NCBI GenBank assembly: GCA_031264715.1
Contig: JAISDP010000138.1
Coordinates: forward strand, 1-37,906
Source: Bacteroidales bacterium
GTDB taxonomy: Bacteria; Bacteroidota; Bacteroidia; Bacteroidales; UBA4181
DNA length: 37,906 nucleotides
Direction: 5' to 3'
The notes below the pieces were generated by a model. It had not been told where the DNA came from and did no database searches. It worked only from the letters and a program-made list of their open reading frames with translations. Of this stretch, positions 1 to 32,420 are shown in pieces. The position numbers were made by a program, and so were the translations under genes. The stretch's first letter is position 1; each line of letters begins with the position of its first letter.

Positions 1-260
1 GCGATGTTCTGGTAATAGCCAAGCAAGGCGTCGGGGCTTGTTTCCAGCGGAATATATTTTACGGATTCGATCACGTCCGACGATTTGACCAGGTCTTCGG
101 CTTTCCCGATCACAATAACCTTGGCCCGGGAGGAATCCGTCGGGACAGTCTTCGATTCCTCCAGATCATCGGGAGTGGGGAAACCGGAACTCCGGCGCAT
201 GTTCTGCACGCATCCCCATAAAATACCAACAACAGTCAAAATTAAAAATGCCTGTCTCAT
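1..260 (-). CDS. Lipoprotein, N-terminal part only (gene continues past window start); probably a 6-bladed beta-propeller (BF3164-like) family member
   Basis: My own reverse-complement translation from the ATG at 260..258 gives MRQAFLILTVVGILWGCVQNMRRSSGFPTPDDLEESKTVPTDSSRAKVIVIGKAEDLVKSSDVIESVKYIPLETSPDALLGYYQNI. It has a lipobox (LWGC). It is absent from the ORF track because no stop lies inside the window. The 'KYIPLET..DALLG' segment resembles the start of Bacteroidales beta-propeller lipoproteins that usually neighbour NVEALA genes (recalled from memory). Confidence 0.5.
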   Translation of the reverse strand, partial: MRQAFLILTVVGILWGCVQNMRRSSGFPTPDDLEESKTVPTDSSRAKVIVIGKAEDLVKSSDVIESVKYIPLETSPDALLGYYQNI

Positions 261-333
261 ATTGTTTCTTTTAATTTTTAAAGATGTTTAAAGGGTTGTT
301 TCCAAAACATGGAAACAACCCATGTAAACTCAA

Positions 334-873
334 TTATTGCGCGTTACATTCGGGCGTACACGAGAATTTCTCCCAACCATCACGACATTCGTACGTTTTT
401 CCTGAATAAGTGATGGTTGTAGTAGTACTCGATGACGAGCCGCCTGATGCACCTCCGCTTATCGGAGTGTCCGGTATGGGAATGTTTATAGACCCTGTCC
501 CGCAACTGCCACCAGTGGTGGTAACAGTTTTTGTACAGTCCGTCTCAGTTTTTTGCAACTTCCAAAGCCACGGATTAAAAAGTCCGCCTGAAGTGGAACC
601 GCTACCACAGCCACTACCGCTACCACAGCCACTACCAGTACAACTACCGCCACTACCACAGCCACTGCCACTGCCGGTACTACCATCGCCACTGCCGGTA
701 CTGCCACCGCCGGTGCAGCTGCCGCCGCTACCGCATCCGTTGGTTTGCGCCAGCACTTCCACATGGAGTTTGCTGTCGCGAATGCCATAGTCATTCATTG
801 CGTGCCTGAAATTCAACGCTAAGGCGAATAACAGGGCGCCAACGCCCATCATTGCCAATTTAAAACTTTTCAT
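334..873 (-). CDS. Secreted or membrane-anchored NVEALA-like protein with a long Gly/Ser/Cys/Thr-rich low-complexity region
   Basis: N-terminal hydrophobic segment MKSFKLAMMGVGALLFALAL, then 'SKLHVEVLAQ', which resembles the NVEALA family motif at its usual position. After that come GCGSGGSCTG (twice), CGSGSGCGSGS, a Thr/Ser-rich tract and a Cys-containing C-terminus (YECRDGWEKFSCTPECNAQ). It is co-oriented with both neighbouring genes. Confidence 0.65.
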   Translation of the reverse strand: MKSFKLAMMGVGALLFALALNFRHAMNDYGIRDSKLHVEVLAQTNGCGSGGSCTGGGSTGSGDGSTGSGSGCGSGGSCTGSGCGSGSGCGSGSTSGGLFNPWLWKLQKTETDCTKTVTTTGGSCGTGSINIPIPDTPISGGASGGSSSSTTTTITYSGKTYECRDGWEKFSCTPECNAQ

Positions 874-932
874 CTTATTATGATTTTTTGTTTAATTAAT
901 TTAATTACAATTTAAAAATATTCATGCCAAAT

Positions 933-970
933 ATCGCCATATTACAGCCCCAAGCGGGGCTTTCGGCGAT
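933..970 (-). terminator. Imperfect compound stem-loop downstream of the GT-C-like gene
   Basis: ATCGCC..AGCCCC-aagc-GGGGCT..GGCGAT lies 34 bp after the stop at 1004. Only a weak U-run (AUUU) follows on the minus strand. Confidence 0.3.
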
Positions 971-1003
971 ACGAACAGTATACATAATATAAAGGATGTT
1001 TGC

Positions 1004-2287
1004 TCATTGTTCTTGGGGTTTATAGTCGTCACGCTGTTTCAACAAATCCCGCATTTCTTTTTTAAGGGTATCCGTATCATGCCAGGCATGTATCCTCATG
1101 CCGGAATATATACCCAGGTAGAGCACATAGCAGGCAAATAAAGTGCAAACAGCTATTTTGCCGGGAGGTTTCATTTTTTGACAGATCAGGAAATACGCTG
1201 TGATAAAACCAATACCCATGAGCGCCACATACAGGTACCGGTCGGCAATAATTGAAAACCGGGAGAGTTCTACCACATTCAATACAATGGCCATGTGGAT
1301 CAGGAAAAAGAGTAATCCGAACTTCAGCGCCCAATGAGATAAAAATTTCCATAAACAGACCACTATGACTATGAGCAATGCCGGATACAAAAGTAACCAT
1401 TGCGGAAGCGGATCGCCTATGGCAGACGGGAATGGATACAGGTATGACAGTTTGAAGGGGAAAAGGGATTTGGAGAGGTATTCCATCAACGAATAACAGC
1501 CATAAACTCCCCGTTGCCAGAGAGGGTATGCCGGGGCGTCGGTCAAGACGCCCTGGCCGCTGACCGATTGCGACAACATGGTTACAATCCCGAAAACCAA
1601 TGATAATACGAAAAAGGGTATGGTTGTTTTCCAGACAGGTTTATCGGTCAACTTGAAGTTTAAAAACCAGTAGACAAGCAGCATCCACAAAGGGAAAGTA
1701 ACTGCCTGGTCTTTCCCCAGGAACGACAATACGTAAAGCAGCGCCGTCCAAACATAATAGATGCTTTTCCTTTTTTCGATATAGAGCAGGAAGGTATAAG
1801 TAGCGCCAAAATAAAACAGGGCATAAACCAATACCTTGGAGGCGCTCATCCAGGCAACGGATTCCACATTACAGGGATGGACGGCAAAAATGAGGATGGT
1901 AAGGAATGACAGGATATTTACGTTTTTACGGTCAACCCTGCCGCTCAGGATCAACAGTTTCCTGAGTGTCGCGTATGCCAGGCCGATATTGGCGACATGC
2001 AACAGCATGCTTGCCAAATGAAAGTGAAAAGGGTTGTATCCGAAAAACTCATACAGCGCCAGGTAGAGATATTCATTCAGGGGTGCGTACTGGCCGTGGT
2101 AGAATTCGGTTAAAATGCGCCATAGATTGTGCAAATGAAAACCGCCTTCGGTGTATTCGTTCATTACTGCCCACTGGTCGTCCCAAAAATCGAGCAACTG
2201 GTTCTTCAACAAAGGAAGATAAAGTATGACCCCTACAAACAACAATAAAACAGGATATATGTAATTTTTGAGTCTGGTATATTTCAT
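1004..2287 (-). CDS. Polytopic membrane protein, GT-C-fold glycosyltransferase-like (PMT/TMTC-type), without a TPR tail
   Basis: 427 aa with roughly 10 or more hydrophobic helices. The first loop carries 'LLDFWDDQWAVMNE', resembling the 'F(V)WDD' acidic loop of bacterial PMT_2/TMTC-like (DUF1736-type) mannosyltransferase homologues. The protein ends soon after the last helix. Confidence 0.6.
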   Translation of the reverse strand: MKYTRLKNYIYPVLLLFVGVILYLPLLKNQLLDFWDDQWAVMNEYTEGGFHLHNLWRILTEFYHGQYAPLNEYLYLALYEFFGYNPFHFHLASMLLHVANIGLAYATLRKLLILSGRVDRKNVNILSFLTILIFAVHPCNVESVAWMSASKVLVYALFYFGATYTFLLYIEKRKSIYYVWTALLYVLSFLGKDQAVTFPLWMLLVYWFLNFKLTDKPVWKTTIPFFVLSLVFGIVTMLSQSVSGQGVLTDAPAYPLWQRGVYGCYSLMEYLSKSLFPFKLSYLYPFPSAIGDPLPQWLLLYPALLIVIVVCLWKFLSHWALKFGLLFFLIHMAIVLNVVELSRFSIIADRYLYVALMGIGFITAYFLICQKMKPPGKIAVCTLFACYVLYLGIYSGMRIHAWHDTDTLKKEMRDLLKQRDDYKPQEQ

Positions 2288-2334
2288 TATTTAAATTCTT
2301 TCCTCTAACTCTAACCCGTCACAATATAAAAGGG

Positions 2335-2365
2335 CAATATTAGACTGCTTATATCACAGTTGCAA
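2335..2365 (-). promoter_or_regulatory. Candidate Bacteroidota sigma-A promoter for the GT-C/NVEALA-like/lipoprotein operon
   Basis: The minus strand reads cTTGCA-N-TAATATTG, with 20 nt between TTG and TA. This compares with the consensus TTTG-N19-21-TAnnTTTG. The -7 box ends 47 bp upstream of the ATG at 2287. The same module recurs at 3438-3468. Confidence 0.45.
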
Positions 2366-2373
2366 GGAAAAAA

Positions 2374-2446
2374 TTCCCAACGTAGCCATTTTGTATCCCT
2401 AACGTCGAAAAAAGTTCCCAACGTAGCTATTTTGTATCCCTAACGT
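2374..2446. repeat. Four phased decamers TTCCCAACGT / TCCCTAACGT (a 32-bp unit repeated with a 41-bp period)
   Basis: The decamers start at 2374, 2396, 2415 and 2437, giving spacings of 22, 19 and 22 bp. They lie directly upstream of the candidate promoter. A fifth copy (TTCCCAACGC) sits at 3477-3486 in the second promoter module. Confidence 0.7.
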
Positions 2447-2569
2447 AGACTTGTTAAGACGTTGCGGATAAAATTGCTCCCATACATTACCGTGCATATC
2501 ATATAATCCATAATTATTTGCAACCTGTCAGGCTGCAAAGCTGCCGACAGGGTTGGAACGGCTAACGGG

Positions 2570-2606
2570 AAAAAGCACGTAGAGACGCGATGCATCGCGT
2601 CTCTAC
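2570..2606 (-). terminator. Intrinsic-terminator-like perfect palindrome downstream of the 223-aa gene
   Basis: GTAGAGACGCGATGCATCGCGTCTCTAC (2579-2606) is a perfect 28-bp palindrome. On the minus strand it is followed by GTGCTTTTTCCC. Confidence 0.45.
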
Positions 2607-2622
2607 ATTACCCGTCAGGGGT

Positions 2623-2721: not shown

Positions 2722-3393
2722 TTATTCTTCGCTTGTTGGCGGCTCTTCGTCATCCTTGTGCGGCGACGTTCTGCTCGACATTTTCGGGAAAATGCGGTCG
2801 GCAAGCGATGCGCCGAACTCCTTGCGGGCTTCCAGCCAATTGTTTTCGTACTGTTTCCGCACGGCCAGCTTGGTCAATTCCTCCGAAGCCTGAATCGCTT
2901 TTAGCCGGTTAATGGCTTGCTGGTACGCGTCCCACGCGGCTATGGAGGCATCCGCCTTTTCCTGCAGGATTGCAGCCAATGGTTTCAACTGGTGGCCATC
3001 CTCCAACTGGTTAAGCTTTACTACTAAATTTTTTACTTCCTGCGGCTCTTTGGAAAGCGACATCTGCACCAGATCGGAGAATCGGCCGGTAGGGAACAGC
3101 AGTTCGAGCGCCTGCGAGAGATGGTCGCGGTCGTATTGCCGGGTTTGCTCAAATGTGGTACGCACAGCATTATCCAGATCGGTGTCGCACAGGATCACAT
3201 CATCATAAGCATACTCGCGGTCGTCCGAAGCGTTTTCCCGTTCTTTTTCCTTTTCCTTCAACTGTTCCAACACCTGTTGTATAGCGGCGGCGTATTTTTT
3301 GGTGTGCGCCAGCCGTCCGCATAATCTTGTATGCCGCTTTGCCATCCTGAGATGCATGGCGGCAGAATCCTTTTGTAAAATCATTTTTGCCAT
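2722..3393 (-). CDS. Hypothetical protein, 223 aa, charged and helical, no signal peptide
   Basis: Longest ORF in this interval. It is preceded by the duplicated promoter module and followed by the palindromic terminator candidate. I recognise no family. Confidence 0.55.
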   Translation of the reverse strand: MAKMILQKDSAAMHLRMAKRHTRLCGRLAHTKKYAAAIQQVLEQLKEKEKERENASDDREYAYDDVILCDTDLDNAVRTTFEQTRQYDRDHLSQALELLFPTGRFSDLVQMSLSKEPQEVKNLVVKLNQLEDGHQLKPLAAILQEKADASIAAWDAYQQAINRLKAIQASEELTKLAVRKQYENNWLEARKEFGASLADRIFPKMSSRTSPHKDDEEPPTSEE

Positions 3394-3437
3394 GGTGGTA
3401 ATTTTTTTCGATTGATGATAATATTTATAAAAAAAAG

Positions 3438-3468
3438 CAATATTAAACTATTTATCTCACAGTTGCAA
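3438..3468 (-). promoter_or_regulatory. Second copy of the candidate promoter module, upstream of the 223-aa gene
   Basis: Same cTTGCA-N-TAATATTG arrangement on the minus strand. The -7 box ends 44 bp upstream of the ATG at 3393. The 29-nt core tcacagttgcaaggaaaaaattcccaacg is identical to 2354-2382. Confidence 0.45.
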
Positions 3469-3601
3469 GGAAAAAATTCCCAACGCAGCATATTTTACAT
3501 CCCCAGCCACTACTGTCCGGTAAAATTTTATGTGGGTGCAATTGCCTTCCGACATCCGATCGCAAGCACGAAACATTCCGTGCGTATTTTGCCCGTCAGG
3601 G

Positions 3602-3746
3602 CATTCATAGCAATAGAATCGATGCGAAAGACATCAACCAATCTCTGTAGGAGATTCATCATGTGAAACCCCATACGGGGTTTTGATCCGGTGGCGGTGC
3701 ATATTTTTTCTATTTTTTCTATTGATATGGTTTCCCTGACGGGAAA
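3602..3746 (+). repeat. Copy A of a ~140-bp repeat with two hairpins, the second terminator-like (MITE-like or small-RNA-like)
   Basis: A ~105-bp block (aatctctgtaggagattcatcatgtgaaaccccatacggggttttgatccggtggcggtgcatattttttctatt...gatatggtttccctgacgggaaa) is shared with 3947-4083. Copy A carries an extra 9-bp duplication (ttttctatt). Hairpins are ATCTC-tgtag-GAGAT and AAACCCC-atac-GGGGTTT followed by T (3666-3684). CCCGTCAGGG (3591-3600) is inverted relative to CCCTGACGGG (3734-3743). Confidence 0.7.
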
Positions 3747-3769
3747 TATATTCGATCGACCTGTCATCG

Positions 3770-3915
3770 TCTACCGGTCTGCCATCCCCGACGGGATTTG
3801 GTCGATATTAACCGATATGGCTTCTACCAATATGTCATCCCTGACGGGGTTTCCGCTACAGGGAAAAACAGGCGGCGCATGTTTTTCTACCGATATGTCA
3901 TCCCTGACGGGGTTT
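3770..3915. repeat. Three further copies of the ~31-bp CCCTGACGGG repeat family
   Basis: Copies at 3770-3799 (degenerate: tctaccggtctgccatccccgacgggattt), 3822-3852 (ttctaccaatatgtcatccctgacggggttt) and 3885-3915 (ttctaccgatatgtcatccctgacggggttt). Confidence 0.75.
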
Positions 3916-3946
3916 CCGCCGAATGATGGAACGTTGTCCGGCAGGA

Positions 3947-4083
3947 CATTCATAGCAATAGAAATCAATACGAAAAACATCCGTTAATCTCTGTAGGAGA
4001 TTCATCATGTGAAACCCCATACGGGGTTTTGATCCGGTGGCGGTGCATATTTTTTCTATTGATATGGTTTCCCTGACGGGAAA
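3947..4083 (+). repeat. Copy B of the ~140-bp hairpin-bearing repeat
   Basis: Identical to copy A over the 3' ~105 bp apart from the 9-bp indel. The 5' ~35 bp has diverged. The terminator-like hairpin lies at 4012-4030. Confidence 0.7.
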
Positions 4084-4148
4084 CAATGTTGATAGACCCT
4101 GACAGGTCATAAAATTCCTTTCCTTTGATTGCGTCAAGTACTTTGTGA

Positions 4149-4442
4149 GGCCAAAAAGTACTCCGCTCTGCCGCGGCGGATGCTTTATAAGGCAAAAAAG
4201 CGCTCCGCTCTGCCGCGGCGGATGCTTTACAGGGCAAAAAAGCGCTCCACTCTGCCGCGGCGAATGCTTTTCAGGGCAAAAAAGCGCTCCACTCTGCCGC
4301 GGCGAATGCTTTATAAGGCAAAAAAGCGCTCCACTCTGCCGCGGCGGATGCTTTGCAGGGCAAAAAAGCGCTCCGCTCTGCCGCGGCGGATGCTTTATAA
4401 GGCAAAAAAGTACTCCACCCTCCGTCGCGAACGTTTTTCAGC
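4149..4442. repeat. Tandem array, 7 x 42 bp
   Basis: Units start at 4149, 4191, 4233, 4275, 4317, 4359 and 4401. The consensus is ggcaaaaaagcgctccRctctgccgcggcgRatgctttNNNN. The first and last units are degenerate (gtactcc). There are no spacers between units. Confidence 0.9.
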
Positions 4443-4512
4443 AACCACATGCCGGCAAAACTTGCGAAAGACGCCATCCTCTCCCCGCGGGCAGGCGCAG
4501 GCTCGCAATGCT

Positions 4513-30953: not shown

Positions 30954-32420
30954 CTACCGGCCGGCAGCCCTGAACATCCGGGTCAAGCGGATATTGAACG
31001 GGAAATTCTTTTCCTTATTCAGCGACAGCCATACGAATCGTGGCGCACCCACAATATGGTCTTCCGGCACGAATCCCCAGAAACGCGAATCAAGCGAATC
31101 GTGGCGATTGTCGCCCATCATCCAGTAATAATCCATCTTGAAGGTGTAACTGTCGGCCTTTGCGCCATTGATATAAATGTCGCCGCCCTGTATTTTCAGT
31201 TCGTTCCCTTCATAGGCCGTGATGATGCGCTCGTAGAAACTGATGTTCAAAGTATCAATCCTGACGGTAACGTCTTTTTTCGGTATCCACACCGGCCCGA
31301 AATTATCCAGGTTCCAGGAATAATGCCCGTTGTGCGGAAATATTTCGCTGTCGTAAACACCCTGAGGCCTCACCCTTTTTTCAACCGACCGCACATTTCC
31401 CAACTTCTCGAGTTCCTCGACATTTGCAGCGATCAGTTGTATTTCGTACAACCCGTCGCTCAACGGGTGCACATCATCCTTATATATGTCCAATTTTTCG
31501 AGTGTACGGGTATTGATGCGCGAACCGTCGGTTTGTACTATATATCGGAACTGTATTTTTGGAAATTGCTTCTGGGGTTTGCCGTTCACGTATACCTGGG
31601 TGTTAACGATCTTTAAGGTATCGCCGGGAAGGGCGACACAGCGTTTGATGTAGTTATCGCGTTTGTCAACCGGGCGAACGGTAATTTCGTTGTGGGCAAG
31701 CACATACTTTCGAGCCATATCCATGTAATGATCAAAATGTTGAAGCGACTTGCCGGCCATTTTATCCTGACCTTCAAACTCACCCGCTACTCGCCGCAAT
31801 TGCAAATAATAGCTGTCCGACTGGTATTGCACGAGTACCGTATCGCCTTCGGGAAAGTTAAAAACCACAATATCATCATTCTTAATGTGCGTAAAACCCG
31901 TCAACCGCTTGTAAGGCCACTGTATCCATTCCAGGTACGATTTAGTATCGGTTGTCAACGGCATGGTGTGCTGCGCAAACGGGAAAGAAAGCGGCGTGTT
32001 GGGTATTTTTGGACCATATTTCAACTTGCTTACAAACAGGTGATCGCCTATTTGCAGGGTTTTTTCCATGGAACCGGTTGGGATTTTATAGTTCTGGAAC
32101 ACAAAGATATTGATCAGTGTTACCGCGATAACAGCGAAAATCAATGCATCAATCCATTCCACCACTTTGCTGTTGGGGCCTTCGCGCTTTTTCCAGAAAG
32201 TCCAGTTGACTTTTTTCGATACATAAATGTCAAACAGGACAGGCACACCTGCCAGCAACCACCAATTACCTACCCAATACGCCCAAAGCAGGTACAGGAA
32301 AGTGATCAATCCGAATTTGAAATATTTATTGGATAATACCTTTACAAATTGTGGAATCTCCTGCTGCCTCTTTGCAGTATCTTTCTTTGTTTGGATATCT
32401 TTATTCTTTGCGTCTTTCAT
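30954..32420 (-). CDS. lepB: Signal peptidase I (long Bacteroidota form)
   Basis: Catalytic boxes GSMEKTL (Ser), YIKRCVALPGD (Lys) and MMGDNRHDSLDSRFWGFV, with an N-terminal membrane anchor. Confidence 0.9.
   Translation of the reverse strand: MKDAKNKDIQTKKDTAKRQQEIPQFVKVLSNKYFKFGLITFLYLLWAYWVGNWWLLAGVPVLFDIYVSKKVNWTFWKKREGPNSKVVEWIDALIFAVIAVTLINIFVFQNYKIPTGSMEKTLQIGDHLFVSKLKYGPKIPNTPLSFPFAQHTMPLTTDTKSYLEWIQWPYKRLTGFTHIKNDDIVVFNFPEGDTVLVQYQSDSYYLQLRRVAGEFEGQDKMAGKSLQHFDHYMDMARKYVLAHNEITVRPVDKRDNYIKRCVALPGDTLKIVNTQVYVNGKPQKQFPKIQFRYIVQTDGSRINTRTLEKLDIYKDDVHPLSDGLYEIQLIAANVEELEKLGNVRSVEKRVRPQGVYDSEIFPHNGHYSWNLDNFGPVWIPKKDVTVRIDTLNISFYERIITAYEGNELKIQGGDIYINGAKADSYTFKMDYYWMMGDNRHDSLDSRFWGFVPEDHIVGAPRFVWLSLNKEKNFPFNIRLTRMFRAAGR

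What the first reader, a model, noticed from the sequence alone, without database searches (positions are those of the whole stretch)
1..2287. Three-gene cluster: GT-C-like membrane protein, atypically long NVEALA-like Gly/Ser/Cys/Thr-rich protein, beta-propeller lipoprotein
SEEN: the three genes are co-oriented behind one candidate promoter (2335-2365). The middle protein has a hydrophobic leader followed by 'LHVEVLAQ'. The downstream lipoprotein begins like Bacteroidales 6-bladed beta-propeller lipoproteins. The upstream protein has a PMT/TMTC-like 'FWDD' first loop. ESTABLISHED: NVEALA proteins are normally ~70-80 aa and recurrently sit next to 6-bladed beta-propeller/BF3164-type lipoprotein genes in Bacteroidales. 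The function of that pairing is unknown. PMT/TMTC GT-C enzymes O-mannosylate Ser/Thr-rich secreted substrates. INFERENCE: the GT-C-like protein may glycosylate the Ser/Thr-rich NVEALA-like protein, and the propeller may process or bind it. That would be an uncharacterised secreted-peptide modification system.
Basis: partly seen in the sequence, partly recalled or inferred. Interest (0 to 1): 0.7.

Follow-up and report, generated by a model that had tools for sequence, protein, structure and literature searches.

The report
Bacteroidota secreted-peptide maturation cassette
The three genes are the start of a widespread, unstudied Bacteroidota gene cassette. It pairs a family of very variable, cysteine-rich secreted mini-proteins with their own membrane sugar-transferase, propeller lipoprotein, disulfide enzyme and signal peptidase, which points to an undescribed way of making modified secreted peptides.

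Summary
Three co-oriented minus-strand genes sit at 2287..1004 (427 aa), 873..334 (179 aa) and 260..1 (cut by the contig end).

The 427-aa protein has a GT-C glycosyltransferase fold. The 16 best PDB fold matches are all GT-C enzymes, W35-D36-D37 is invariant, and Pfam PMT_2 is below threshold for this copy but matches 11 of 21 relatives.

The 179-aa protein is not a Pfam NVEALA member (0 of about 150 family members match). It belongs to an unannotated family of at least 580 clusters, median length 130 aa. Each member has a conserved N-terminal signal-anchor leader ending [V/I]-L-A|Q, then a Gly/Ser-rich tract, then a hypervariable domain that usually has an even number of cysteines. True NVEALA proteins share this architecture and similar neighbours, so it looks like a sister system.

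The linkage is strong. 23 of 24 close GT-C orthologue loci carry the leader gene, against 0 of 55 distant ones. The usual order is GT-C, precursor, DUF5128 propeller, ResA-like thioredoxin, S26 signal peptidase, often followed by GtrA, GT22 and decaprenyl-phospho-arabinose-type donor genes.

Best reading: a periplasmic maturation pathway (glycosylation, disulfide formation, leader cleavage) for polymorphic secreted peptides. The chemistry and the product's function are inferred, not shown. The held paper library contains no paper using the NVEALA or propeller family names.

The parts
2577..2608 (-). Intrinsic-terminator-like hairpin that ends the upstream 223-aa gene. It marks the 5' boundary of the cluster's transcription unit.
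   Evidence: 14-bp stem (7 G-C pairs), 4-nt loop, then GCTTTTTCCC.
2367..2449 (-). Two tandem 41-nt direct repeats just upstream of the promoter-like block. Possibly a regulator binding array.
   Evidence: TRF period 41, 2.0 copies, 95% matches. Family D7, 93% identity. Function not tested.
2324..2386 (-).
   Evidence: Read directly from the sequence. The 63-nt block recurs at 87% identity at 3427-3489, before the next gene. Not picked up by the sigma-70 scan.
1004..2287 (-). GT-C-fold, PMT_2-like membrane glycosyltransferase, 427 aa. W35-D36-D37 is invariant in the first periplasmic loop. No TPR domain.
   Evidence: More than 1400 homologues. Invariant residues listed. AlphaFold2 pLDDT 82, pTM 0.86. 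Foldseek PDB ranks 1-16 are all GT-C enzymes. PMT_2 E=0.0048 here; it matches 11 of 21 relatives, best E=8.9e-8.
748..873 (-). Leader of the precursor (aa 1-42): MKxx, TM helix, LNxxHAxxDYG, xxxNKLHVEVLA. The predicted cleavage site is A42|Q43.
   Evidence: Leader profile finds 580 representative clusters at E<=1e-3. Residue counts: -3 V/I in 103 of 106, -1 A in 101 of 106, +1 Q in 102 of 106.
583..747 (-). Gly/Ser/Thr/Cys-rich low-complexity tract (aa 43-97), starting at Q43. In this genome it is expanded by a DNA tandem repeat.
   Evidence: TRF arrays of period 18 and 21 at 598-711. Relatives lack about 50 of these residues. Across the family the first 25 core residues are 51% G+S, against 21% in the last 40.
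334..582 (-). Variable C-terminal domain (aa 98-179) plus stop codon. It is the recurring core type W-L-W...T-x-C-T...TYxG...C-x-DGW...C...C with four invariant Cys.
   Evidence: Alignment with P0181, P0200 and P0211: C113, C163, C172 and C176 invariant.
286..329 (-). Strong stem-loop immediately after the precursor stop codon. Probably an attenuator or transcript stabiliser between the precursor and propeller genes.
   Evidence: 12-bp perfect stem, -24.5 kcal/mol, z=-5.5, 0 of 200 shuffles fold as well. Unrelated hairpins of <=-15 kcal/mol lie within 15 nt of the stop in 12 of 26 other precursor genes.
1..260 (-). 5' part of a DUF5128 6-bladed beta-propeller lipoprotein gene (86 codons; the contig ends inside the gene).
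   Evidence: Pfam DUF5128 E=2e-5, 24.4 bits against a cutoff of 22.9. Lipobox ILWGC. Full-length orthologues score 1e-36.

Best explanation
The window holds the first three genes of a conserved Bacteroidota cassette that makes and matures polymorphic, Sec-exported small proteins in the periplasm.

Proposed pathway:
1. The 179-aa precursor inserts into the inner membrane by its N-terminal signal-anchor, with the rest facing the periplasm.
2. The adjacent GT-C enzyme glycosylates it there from a polyprenyl-phosphate sugar, most likely on Ser/Thr of the Gly/Ser/Thr-rich tract that follows the leader.
3. A membrane-anchored ResA-like thioredoxin forms or shuffles the disulfides of the Cys-rich C-terminal domain. 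It is encoded next to the propeller in orthologous loci.
4. The propeller lipoprotein acts as the substrate-binding partner.
5. A cassette-encoded S26 signal peptidase cuts at V-L-A|Q. This releases a product with N-terminal Gln, which can cyclise to pyroglutamate as in other Bacteroidetes signal peptidase I substrates.

The hypervariable core and the multiple copies per genome with identical leaders suggest a bacteriocin-like or signalling and recognition role.

Shown here: gene family assignments, leader and core anatomy, and synteny. Inferred: every biochemical step and the biological role.
For: Synteny:
- In 23 of 24 close GT-C orthologue loci a leader-family gene is present, and in 20 it is the very next gene.
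- The usual order is GTC-LEAD-PROP-TRX-S26, with or without GtrA and GT22. None of these occur in 55 loci of distant GT-C homologues.
- A 65%-identical relative shows the full set GTC-LEAD-PROP-TRX-S26.

GT-C:
- Confident model (pTM 0.86) whose 16 best PDB matches are STT3, Pmt4, Pmt1/2, PglB, ArnT and PimE.
- Invariant WDD in loop 1. PMT_2 matches 11 of 21 relatives.

Lipid-linked donor context:
- GtrA (7.8e-29) and GT22 (4.6e-40) lie in the cassettes.
- Homologues of decaprenyl-phosphate phosphoribosyltransferase (1.1e-55), DprE1 (7.6e-105) and DprE2 (5e-47) lie inside the Proteiniphilum cassette. UbiA and an SDR lie in the cassette of the 73%-identical relative.

Cleavage:
- -3 V/I in 103 of 106, -1 A in 101 of 106, +1 Q in 102 of 106. 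This fits the signal peptidase I -3/-1 rule and the Bacteroidetes Q-rule (PMC5837995, PMC10653852).
- The cassette S26 proteins keep all catalytic boxes and pass TIGR02227.

Disulfides:
- The CxxC protein profile matches ResA (4nmu), E=2e-5, with the CxxC aligned.
- Cores have an even Cys count in 83 of 106, mode 4.

Dedicated glycosylation:
- The general Bacteroidetes O-glycosylation motif D[ST][AILVMT] is nearly absent from cores (1 occurrence in 26 cores).

Parallel system:
- True NVEALA loci carry a propeller, an S26 and a Wzy_C/TPR membrane protein.
Against: - No experimental data exist for any member. The held library has no paper that uses the family names NVEALA, PF14055, DUF5128/PF17170 or PF15869 for such a system.
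- The window itself stops inside the propeller gene, so TRX and S26 are unverified for this genome.
- The V-L-A|Q site lies about 23 residues after the hydrophobic segment, much further than in ordinary signal peptides.
- S26 is missing within the available flanks of several loci (L006, L007, L013, L019, L025).
- Sphingobacteriia-type loci have only GT-C plus a 48-53-aa 'leader-only' protein with D/N at -1. This suggests the conserved N-terminal part has a role of its own with the GT-C.
- One orthologue (L086) has GTC-GT22-S26-GtrA with no precursor within 9 kb.
- The acceptor of the GT-C is not identified. It could be a glycan, a lipid or the lipoprotein.
Confidence: 0.45

Rival explanations
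1. The small protein is not the glycosylation target. It is a single-pass membrane partner, or specificity or regulatory subunit, of the GT-C enzyme. The GT-C then modifies something else: an envelope glycan or lipid, or the propeller lipoprotein. On this view the conserved TM plus juxtamembrane motif is the functional part.
For: - The GTC-LEAD pair is the most conserved unit.
- In L014 and L017 the small protein is only 48-53 aa, essentially the conserved leader. Its residue at -1 (D/N) does not fit signal peptidase I, and no PROP, TRX or S26 lies nearby.
- GtrA, GT22 and decaprenyl-phospho-arabinose-type genes are typical of glycan and envelope modification pathways.
Against: - It does not explain the hypervariable, even-Cys C-terminal domains, or the several precursor copies per locus with identical leaders.
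- It does not explain the tight PROP-TRX-S26 linkage, or the near-invariant V-x-A|Q site.
Confidence: 0.2
2. This is a bacteriocin-like peptide system in which the GT-C, with GtrA, GT22 and the donor genes, provides self-protection. It would do so by decorating the producer's own envelope, as ArnT does for lipid A. Only TRX, S26 and the propeller would act on the peptide.
For: - ArnT is among the structural matches.
- RND efflux sets flank the cassette in L002, L012 and L086.
- Core hypervariability is typical of antagonism loci.
Against: - Where a locus carries several GT-C copies, a precursor gene directly follows two of the four in L023 and both in L007 (a third L023 copy has one 332 nt from its ORF start; the fourth runs off the locus end). 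That does not look like an envelope housekeeping function.
- A conserved Gly/Ser-rich tract immediately after the cleavage site has no role in this model.
- No antimicrobial activity is known for any member.
Confidence: 0.15
3. The 179-aa ORF is a spurious or low-complexity ORF, and the adjacency of the three genes is coincidental.
For: - Low-complexity, repeat-encoded middle region with overlapping ORFs on other frames.
- No Pfam or NCBIfam match.
Against: - The leader is conserved across genera, with 169 clusters at E<=1e-10.
- Synteny holds in 23 of 24 loci.
- The C-terminal domain has homologues with four invariant Cys.
Confidence: 0.02

Closest known systems
NVEALA (Pfam PF14055) small proteins with neighbouring 6-bladed propeller genes in Bacteroidales (annotated, uncharacterised)
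   Same: - N-terminal MKK plus TM helix, then a conserved L-x-[NH]-V-E-[AV]-L-A motif at about residue 40, a short Gly/Ser stretch, then a variable Cys-containing tail.
- Neighbours include 6-bladed propellers and an S26 peptidase homologous to the one in this cassette (1e-28), plus a periplasm-facing glycan-handling membrane protein.
- Profile-profile score 35.6, against 9.9+-2.3 for column shuffles.
   Different: - Not detected by the Pfam model in about 150 members.
- Cores are much longer (median total length 130 aa against 50-83 aa).
- A distinctive LNxxHAxxDYG motif is present.
- The partner enzyme is a PMT_2-like GT-C plus a ResA-like thioredoxin, not Wzy_C/TPR plus a transglutaminase-like lipoprotein.
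- The propeller is DUF5128 rather than mainly TolB_like.
Protein O-mannosyltransferases PMT/TMTC and bacterial PMT_2-family GT-C enzymes (GT39/GT83-like)
   Same: - GT-C fold, an acidic DD motif in the first extracytoplasmic loop, a PMT_2 profile match, and a presumed polyprenyl-phosphate sugar donor.
- PMTs act on Ser/Thr-rich stretches of Sec-translocated proteins (established knowledge).
   Different: - Only 427 aa, with no MIR or TPR domain.
- Below the Pfam threshold for this copy.
- Sugar and acceptor are unknown.
- Encoded next to its putative substrate.
Pseudomonas aeruginosa TfpW-PilA (group IV pilin arabinosylation)
   Same: - A GT-C enzyme encoded beside the gene of the small secreted protein it O-glycosylates, using decaprenyl-phospho-D-arabinofuranose made by DprE1/DprE2/UbiA homologues (bioRxiv 10.1101/2020.04.19.049825).
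- The Proteiniphilum and L087 cassettes carry such homologues.
   Different: - The substrate is not a pilin, and there is no prepilin peptidase.
- The cassette adds a propeller, a thioredoxin and S26.
- The donor genes are absent from the part of the cluster seen in this window.
tapA-sipW-tasA of Bacillus subtilis (operon-encoded dedicated type I signal peptidase)
   Same: A paralogous S26 signal peptidase is encoded with the specific secreted proteins it is thought to process (my own knowledge for SipW; for this cassette).
   Different: - Gram-negative periplasmic setting.
- The cleavage site lies about 23 residues beyond the TM segment.
- The products are small Cys-rich polymorphic proteins, not amyloid fibre subunits.
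Glycocins and other leader-containing modified bacteriocins (RiPP-like)
   Same: Conserved leader plus variable Cys-rich core, a glycosyltransferase and a thiol-disulfide oxidoreductase in one cluster, and a hairpin after the precursor gene.
   Different: - Modification would be periplasmic, by a GT-C using a lipid-linked donor, not cytoplasmic by a GT-A/GT2 using a nucleotide sugar.
- Export would be by Sec, and leader removal by signal peptidase I rather than a C39 ABC transporter.

Membership tests
NVEALA (Pfam PF14055) | Match to the Pfam NVEALA profile at or near the gathering score | tested here: not met
   No hit at E<=1 for the 179-aa protein or in NCBIfam. No hit in any of 20 leaders at E<=10. 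NVEALA is not among the families matched by 129 full-length members. True NVEALA proteins fetched as a control all carry PF14055.
NVEALA (Pfam PF14055) | Length of about 50-90 aa | tested here: not met
   179 aa here, and the family median is 130 aa with a range of 47-199. True NVEALA proteins are 49-83 aa.
NVEALA (Pfam PF14055) | N-terminal TM helix followed by an invariant N-V-E-A-L-A motif | tested here: inconclusive
   H-V-E-V-L-A-Q sits at the equivalent position. hhalign probability is 92%, score 35.6 against 9.9+-2.3 for shuffles. The post-TM part alone scores only 12.1 against 6.85+-1.43, with a shuffle maximum of 10.9.
NVEALA (Pfam PF14055) | Adjacent 6-bladed beta-propeller gene | tested here: met
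   DUF5128 gene is next downstream. True NVEALA loci show TolB_like and DUF5128 neighbours.
GT-C glycosyltransferases, PMT_2-like (GT39/GT83 type) | GT-C membrane fold | tested here: met
   AlphaFold2 pTM 0.86. Foldseek PDB ranks 1-16 are all GT-C (STT3, Pmt4, Pmt1/2, PglB, ArnT, PimE), with probability 0.85-1.00 and TM-score (query-normalised) 0.34-0.52. E-values are modest (4e-3 to 0.16).
GT-C glycosyltransferases, PMT_2-like (GT39/GT83 type) | Pfam PMT_2 above the gathering score | tested here: inconclusive
   The window protein scores 17.6 bits against a cutoff of 26.1. 11 of 21 family members match at E<=0.1, best 8.9e-8. Some relatives carry a precomputed PF13231 hit or are named 'glycosyltransferase family 39' by NCBI.
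GT-C glycosyltransferases, PMT_2-like (GT39/GT83 type) | Conserved acidic residues in the first extracytoplasmic loop | tested here: met
   W35, D36 and D37 are invariant in 21 sequences of 46-73% identity.
GT-C glycosyltransferases, PMT_2-like (GT39/GT83 type) | Transfer from a polyprenyl-phosphate sugar to a periplasmic acceptor | not testable with these tools
   Context only: GtrA, GT22, and UbiA/DprE1/DprE2 homologues in orthologous cassettes.
TMTC-type O-mannosyltransferases | C-terminal TPR domain after the GT-C core | tested here: not met
   The protein ends at residue 427, right after the last TM helix. No TPR hit in Pfam.
DUF5128 6-bladed beta-propeller lipoproteins | Pfam DUF5128 above the gathering score, plus a lipoprotein signal | tested here: met
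   24.4 bits against a cutoff of 22.9 on the 86-aa fragment. Lipobox ILWGC. Orthologous full-length genes score 1.1e-36.
Signal peptidase I substrates following the Bacteroidetes Q-rule | Small or aliphatic residues at -3 and -1, and Gln at +1 | tested here: met
   V/I at -3 in 103 of 106, A at -1 in 101 of 106, Q at +1 in 102 of 106. The rule is described in PMC5837995.
Signal peptidase I substrates following the Bacteroidetes Q-rule | Cleavage site a few residues after the hydrophobic core | tested here: not met
   The site lies about 23 residues beyond the end of the hydrophobic segment. Actual cleavage cannot be tested here.

The most novel reading that the evidence does not exclude
This cassette and the NVEALA clusters together form a previously undescribed class of ribosomal peptide pathways specific to Bacteroidota. 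Precursors are exported by Sec as membrane-anchored pro-forms. They are modified entirely in the periplasm: O-glycosylation by a GT-C (or a Wzy_C-type enzyme) from lipid-linked sugars, and disulfide formation by a dedicated thioredoxin/propeller pair. A dedicated type I signal peptidase then releases them at a distal V-x-A|Q site. The result is families of polymorphic glycopeptides used in competition or communication between Bacteroidota, including gut Parabacteroides and Bacteroides.
Probability: 0.3. Interest if true: 0.85.

Novelty: new variant of a known kind. Interest (0 to 1): 0.66.

Why it matters
If the model is right, Bacteroidota, including human-gut Parabacteroides and Bacteroides, have a widespread and unstudied route to glycosylated, disulfide-rich secreted peptides. 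The leader family has at least 580 sequence clusters.

The route would work outside the cytoplasm and use parts not previously seen together:
- a GT-C enzyme,
- a dedicated signal peptidase I,
- a thioredoxin/propeller pair.

That would give three things:
- a function for the unexplained NVEALA-plus-propeller gene neighbourhoods;
- a natural acceptor substrate for an orphan bacterial PMT_2-like GT-C family;
- a new class of polymorphic molecules to test in microbiome competition.

The cassette occurs in cultivable strains, so the prediction can be tested directly.

Tried and rejected
- **Extending the window past position 1.** Exact-protein look-ups for the 179-aa and 427-aa proteins found only one extra contig, 2.4 kb long and ending at the same place. 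The rest of the cluster had to be inferred from orthologues.
- **NVEALA membership.** Pfam and NCBIfam scans of the protein, of 20 leaders and of 129 family members gave no hit.
- **Word-indexed search with the leader profile.** It returned only 41 short proteins and no annotation. The exhaustive HMMER search was needed to size the family.
- **Sequence search of the GT-C against PDB.** Neither the single sequence nor the profile found anything. Only the fold comparison was informative.
- **Sigma-70 consensus scan.**
- **General Bacteroidetes O-glycosylation.** Rejected as the explanation for the Ser/Thr richness, because the D[ST][AILVMT] motif is nearly absent.
- **Propeller as a plant-type glutaminyl cyclase.** No such Pfam hit appeared; the propeller matches only DUF5128 and DUF4934.
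- **Literature.** Searches for NVEALA, DUF5128, PF14055, PF15869 and combinations of GT-C, precursor peptide and propeller found nothing relevant.
- **Hairpin between the GT-C and precursor genes (931-972).** Not significant (z=-1.9), so not claimed.


Full report
**1. What is in the window**

Three co-oriented minus-strand ORFs occupy 2287..1004 (427 aa), 873..334 (179 aa) and 260..1 (86 codons, cut by the contig end). The window comes from a Bacteroidales MAG; the 427-aa protein has locus tag LBL24_04915.

A strong terminator at 2608-2577 ends the preceding gene. It fails the sigma-70 scan. It is one mismatch from the Bacteroides -7 consensus, by my own knowledge. It also sits in a 63-nt block that recurs at 87% identity before the next gene.

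Everything upstream of the cluster is ordinary polysaccharide-utilisation and housekeeping content. The cluster therefore starts at the GT-C gene and runs off the contig.

**2. The three proteins**

*The 427-aa protein.*
- It has more than 1400 homologues, and W35-D36-D37 is invariant in loop 1.
- Pfam PMT_2 is below threshold for this copy (17.6 vs 26.1 bits). It matches 11 of 21 relatives, best E=8.9e-8.
- A confident AlphaFold2 model (pLDDT 82, pTM 0.86) has STT3, Pmt4, Pmt1/2, PglB, ArnT and PimE as its 16 best PDB matches, all of them GT-C enzymes.
- PDB sequence searches were empty.
- There is no TPR or MIR domain. It is a minimal PMT_2-like GT-C, not a TMTC or PMT proper.

*The third ORF.* It has a lipobox (ILWGC) and passes the DUF5128 gathering score.

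*The 179-aa protein.* It has no Pfam or NCBIfam match at all.

**3. The small protein belongs to an unannotated family**

Orthologous loci show the same kind of gene right after the GT-C gene. A leader profile searched exhaustively finds 580 representative clusters at E<=1e-3 and 169 at E<=1e-10. Lengths run from 47 to 199 aa, with a median of 130.

Each member has three parts:
- **Leader.** MKK, a TM helix, LNxxHAxxDYG, then xxxNxLHxEVLA.
- **Junction.** A near-invariant site with V/I at -3 (103 of 106), A at -1 (101 of 106) and Q at +1 (102 of 106).
- **Core.** A tract that is 51% Gly+Ser, followed by a hypervariable domain with an even number of Cys in 83 of 106 members, mode 4.

Paralogues within one genome keep identical leaders but have unrelated cores.

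The window's core is a recurring type with four invariant Cys (C113, C163, C172, C176). Its unusual length is a roughly 50-residue expansion of G-S-G-C/T units encoded by an 18/21-nt tandem repeat.

**4. Relation to NVEALA**

No member matches the Pfam model. To compare the families, I fished out real NVEALA proteins using a synthetic bait alignment. Every listed hit carries PF14055 and is 49-83 aa long.

They have the same architecture: TM helix, L-A-N-V-E-A-L-A, a short Gly/Ser stretch, then a variable Cys tail. Profile-profile comparison gives 92% probability and a score of 35.6, against 9.9+-2.3 for column shuffles. Most of that signal comes from the TM part. The motif region alone scores 12.1 against 6.85+-1.43, with a shuffle maximum of 10.9.

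True NVEALA loci contain TolB_like and DUF5128 propellers, DUF1573, and an S26 peptidase homologous to the one in this cassette (1e-28). They also contain lipoproteins whose conserved Cys/His stretches look transglutaminase-like to me (by eye only; no profile match) and a Wzy_C+TPR membrane protein.

The two are therefore best seen as sister systems. 'NVEALA-like' is fair as a description of how it works. 'An NVEALA protein' is not supported.

**5. The cassette**

I built HMMs from the orthologous loci and searched all fetched loci. A leader gene is present in 23 of 24 close GT-C loci, and it is the next gene in 20 of them. The exception, L008, starts at a contig edge just before a propeller gene.

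The typical order is GTC-LEAD-PROP-TRX-S26, often followed by GtrA and GT22. None of LEAD, PROP, TRX or S26 occurs in the 55 loci of distant GT-C homologues (25-32% identity), most of which are labelled as other phyla.

Component identities:

| Component | Evidence |
|---|---|
| Propeller | DUF5128, 1.1e-36 |
| Signal peptidase | Peptidase_S26 1.8e-32 and TIGR02227 above cutoff; all catalytic boxes present |
| CxxC protein | N-terminal TM anchor; profile matches ResA (4nmu), E=2e-5, with the CxxC aligned; AhpC-TSA or Redoxin hits in some members |
| GtrA | 7.8e-29 |
| GT22 | 4.6e-40 |

In Proteiniphilum the cassette also holds homologues of decaprenyl-phosphate phosphoribosyltransferase, DprE1, DprE2 and a HAD phosphatase.

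The closest relatives of the window's GT-C show these orders:
- 65% identity: GTC-LEAD-PROP-TRX-S26
- 73% identity: PROP-TRX-GTC-S26-UbiA-SDR
- 60% identity: GTC-GT22-S26-GtrA-RND pump

.

A strong hairpin follows the precursor stop codon in the window (-24.5 kcal/mol, z=-5.5). Unrelated hairpins follow 12 of 26 other precursor genes.

**6. Mechanism**

Every component is predicted to face the periplasm:
- the precursor after Sec insertion (N-terminus in, by the positive-inside MKK);
- loop 1 of the GT-C;
- the TM-anchored thioredoxin;
- the S26 catalytic domain;
- the lipoprotein, which has no acidic residues just after its lipidated Cys.

The most economical model has four steps:
1. The GT-C glycosylates the Gly/Ser/Thr tract using a lipid-linked sugar.
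2. The thioredoxin forms the disulfides, with the propeller as its partner.
3. The dedicated S26 releases the product at V-L-A|Q.
4. The new N-terminal Gln can cyclise, as in other Bacteroidetes signal peptidase I substrates (PMC5837995, PMC10653852).

The general O-glycosylation motif is nearly absent from cores, which fits a dedicated enzyme. All of these steps are inferred.

Points against the model:
- The cleavage site is unusually far from the TM segment.
- Several loci lack S26 within the available flanks.
- Sphingobacteriia have 'leader-only' 48-53-aa versions with D/N at -1 and no PROP, TRX or S26.
- One orthologue has no precursor within 9 kb.

These points keep two rivals alive. In one, the small protein is a partner of the GT-C rather than its substrate. 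In the other, the GT-C modifies the envelope to protect the producer.

**7. Comparison and novelty**

The parts are familiar: a PMT_2-like GT-C, signal peptidase I, a ResA-like thioredoxin and a DUF5128 propeller. Partial analogues exist. TfpW-PilA pairs a GT-C with its adjacent substrate and uses a DPA donor (bioRxiv 10.1101/2020.04.19.049825). From my own knowledge, tapA-sipW-tasA and the glycocins are also comparable.

The combination, the leader family and the periplasmic logic are not described in any paper of the held library. I rate it a new variant of a known kind (dedicated maturation cassettes for secreted peptides or proteins). There is a real chance (about 0.3) that, together with the NVEALA clusters, it represents a new class.

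**8. Verdict**

Linkage, the GT-C and the propeller hold. NVEALA membership does not. The chemistry is unproven.
- Interest is 0.66.

Noticed in passing
window 2367-2449 and 2324-2386 / 3427-3489: Two tandem 41-nt repeats, each holding two CTACGTTrGGrA-like half-sites, lie just upstream of the cluster's promoter-like block. That 63-nt block is duplicated at 87% identity in front of the 223-aa ORF 2722-3393(-), which has no Pfam hit. This suggests a shared regulatory module.
   Followed up: partly
window 3580-4470: A dense nest of repeats in a non-coding stretch: a 98-nt pair (3617 and 3963), six copies of a 35-nt unit containing CCCTGACGGG, several inverted pairs, and a 42-nt tandem array of 6.6 copies at 4141-4418. 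It looks like MITE/REP-type elements.
   Followed up: no
window 30954-32420 (-): A long (488 aa) S26 signal peptidase lies 30 kb from the cluster. I read it as the housekeeping LepB type because of its length. It is distinct from the short (about 205-290 aa) S26 paralogues found inside orthologous cassettes.
   Followed up: partly
L014 11220-11366; L017 11308-11469: In the two loci labelled Bacteroidota bacterium (L014) and Mucilaginibacter (L017), the gene after the GT-C encodes only a 48-53-aa 'leader-only' protein. It has D or N instead of A before the conserved Q. No propeller, thioredoxin or S26 lies nearby, which hints that the leader part has a function of its own.
   Followed up: partly
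L002 15076-20229; L087 2916-4525: Homologues of decaprenyl-phospho-arabinose pathway genes lie inside the cassette in Proteiniphilum: a UbiA-type phosphoribosyltransferase, DprE1, DprE2 and a HAD phosphatase. UbiA and an SDR also lie in the cassette of the closest relative of the window's GT-C. This suggests an arabinofuranose-type lipid-linked donor.
   Followed up: partly
L002 637-9775; L012 14053-19105; L086 12911-19305: A tripartite RND efflux set (MFP, RND permease(s) and, in L002 and L086, an outer-membrane factor) directly flanks the cassette in three genera. It is a possible route for the periplasmic product across the outer membrane. The components are Pfam-confirmed only in L086; in L002 and L012 they are read from gene order and N-terminal sequences.
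   Followed up: no
L081 5643-14557; L083 5610-15195: True NVEALA clusters contain an S26 signal peptidase, DUF1573 proteins, 503-641-aa lipoproteins whose Cys/His stretches look transglutaminase-like by eye (no profile match) and a Wzy_C+TPR membrane protein (O-antigen-ligase or O-oligosaccharyltransferase type). The held paper library does not describe this for NVEALA neighbourhoods.
   Followed up: partly
L085 2548-2832: In the 65%-identical relative's cassette, the precursor has Cys instead of Gln right after V-L-A (…LRIEVLA|CGDD…). This is a rare exception to the Q at +1.
   Followed up: no
L006, L007, L012, L023 (whole loci): Cassettes are multiplied within single loci, with up to four precursors, eight propellers and four GT-C copies. 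Leaders are identical, cores differ, and some precursor copies are truncated to 55-56 aa. This indicates rapid turnover by duplication and recombination.
   Followed up: partly
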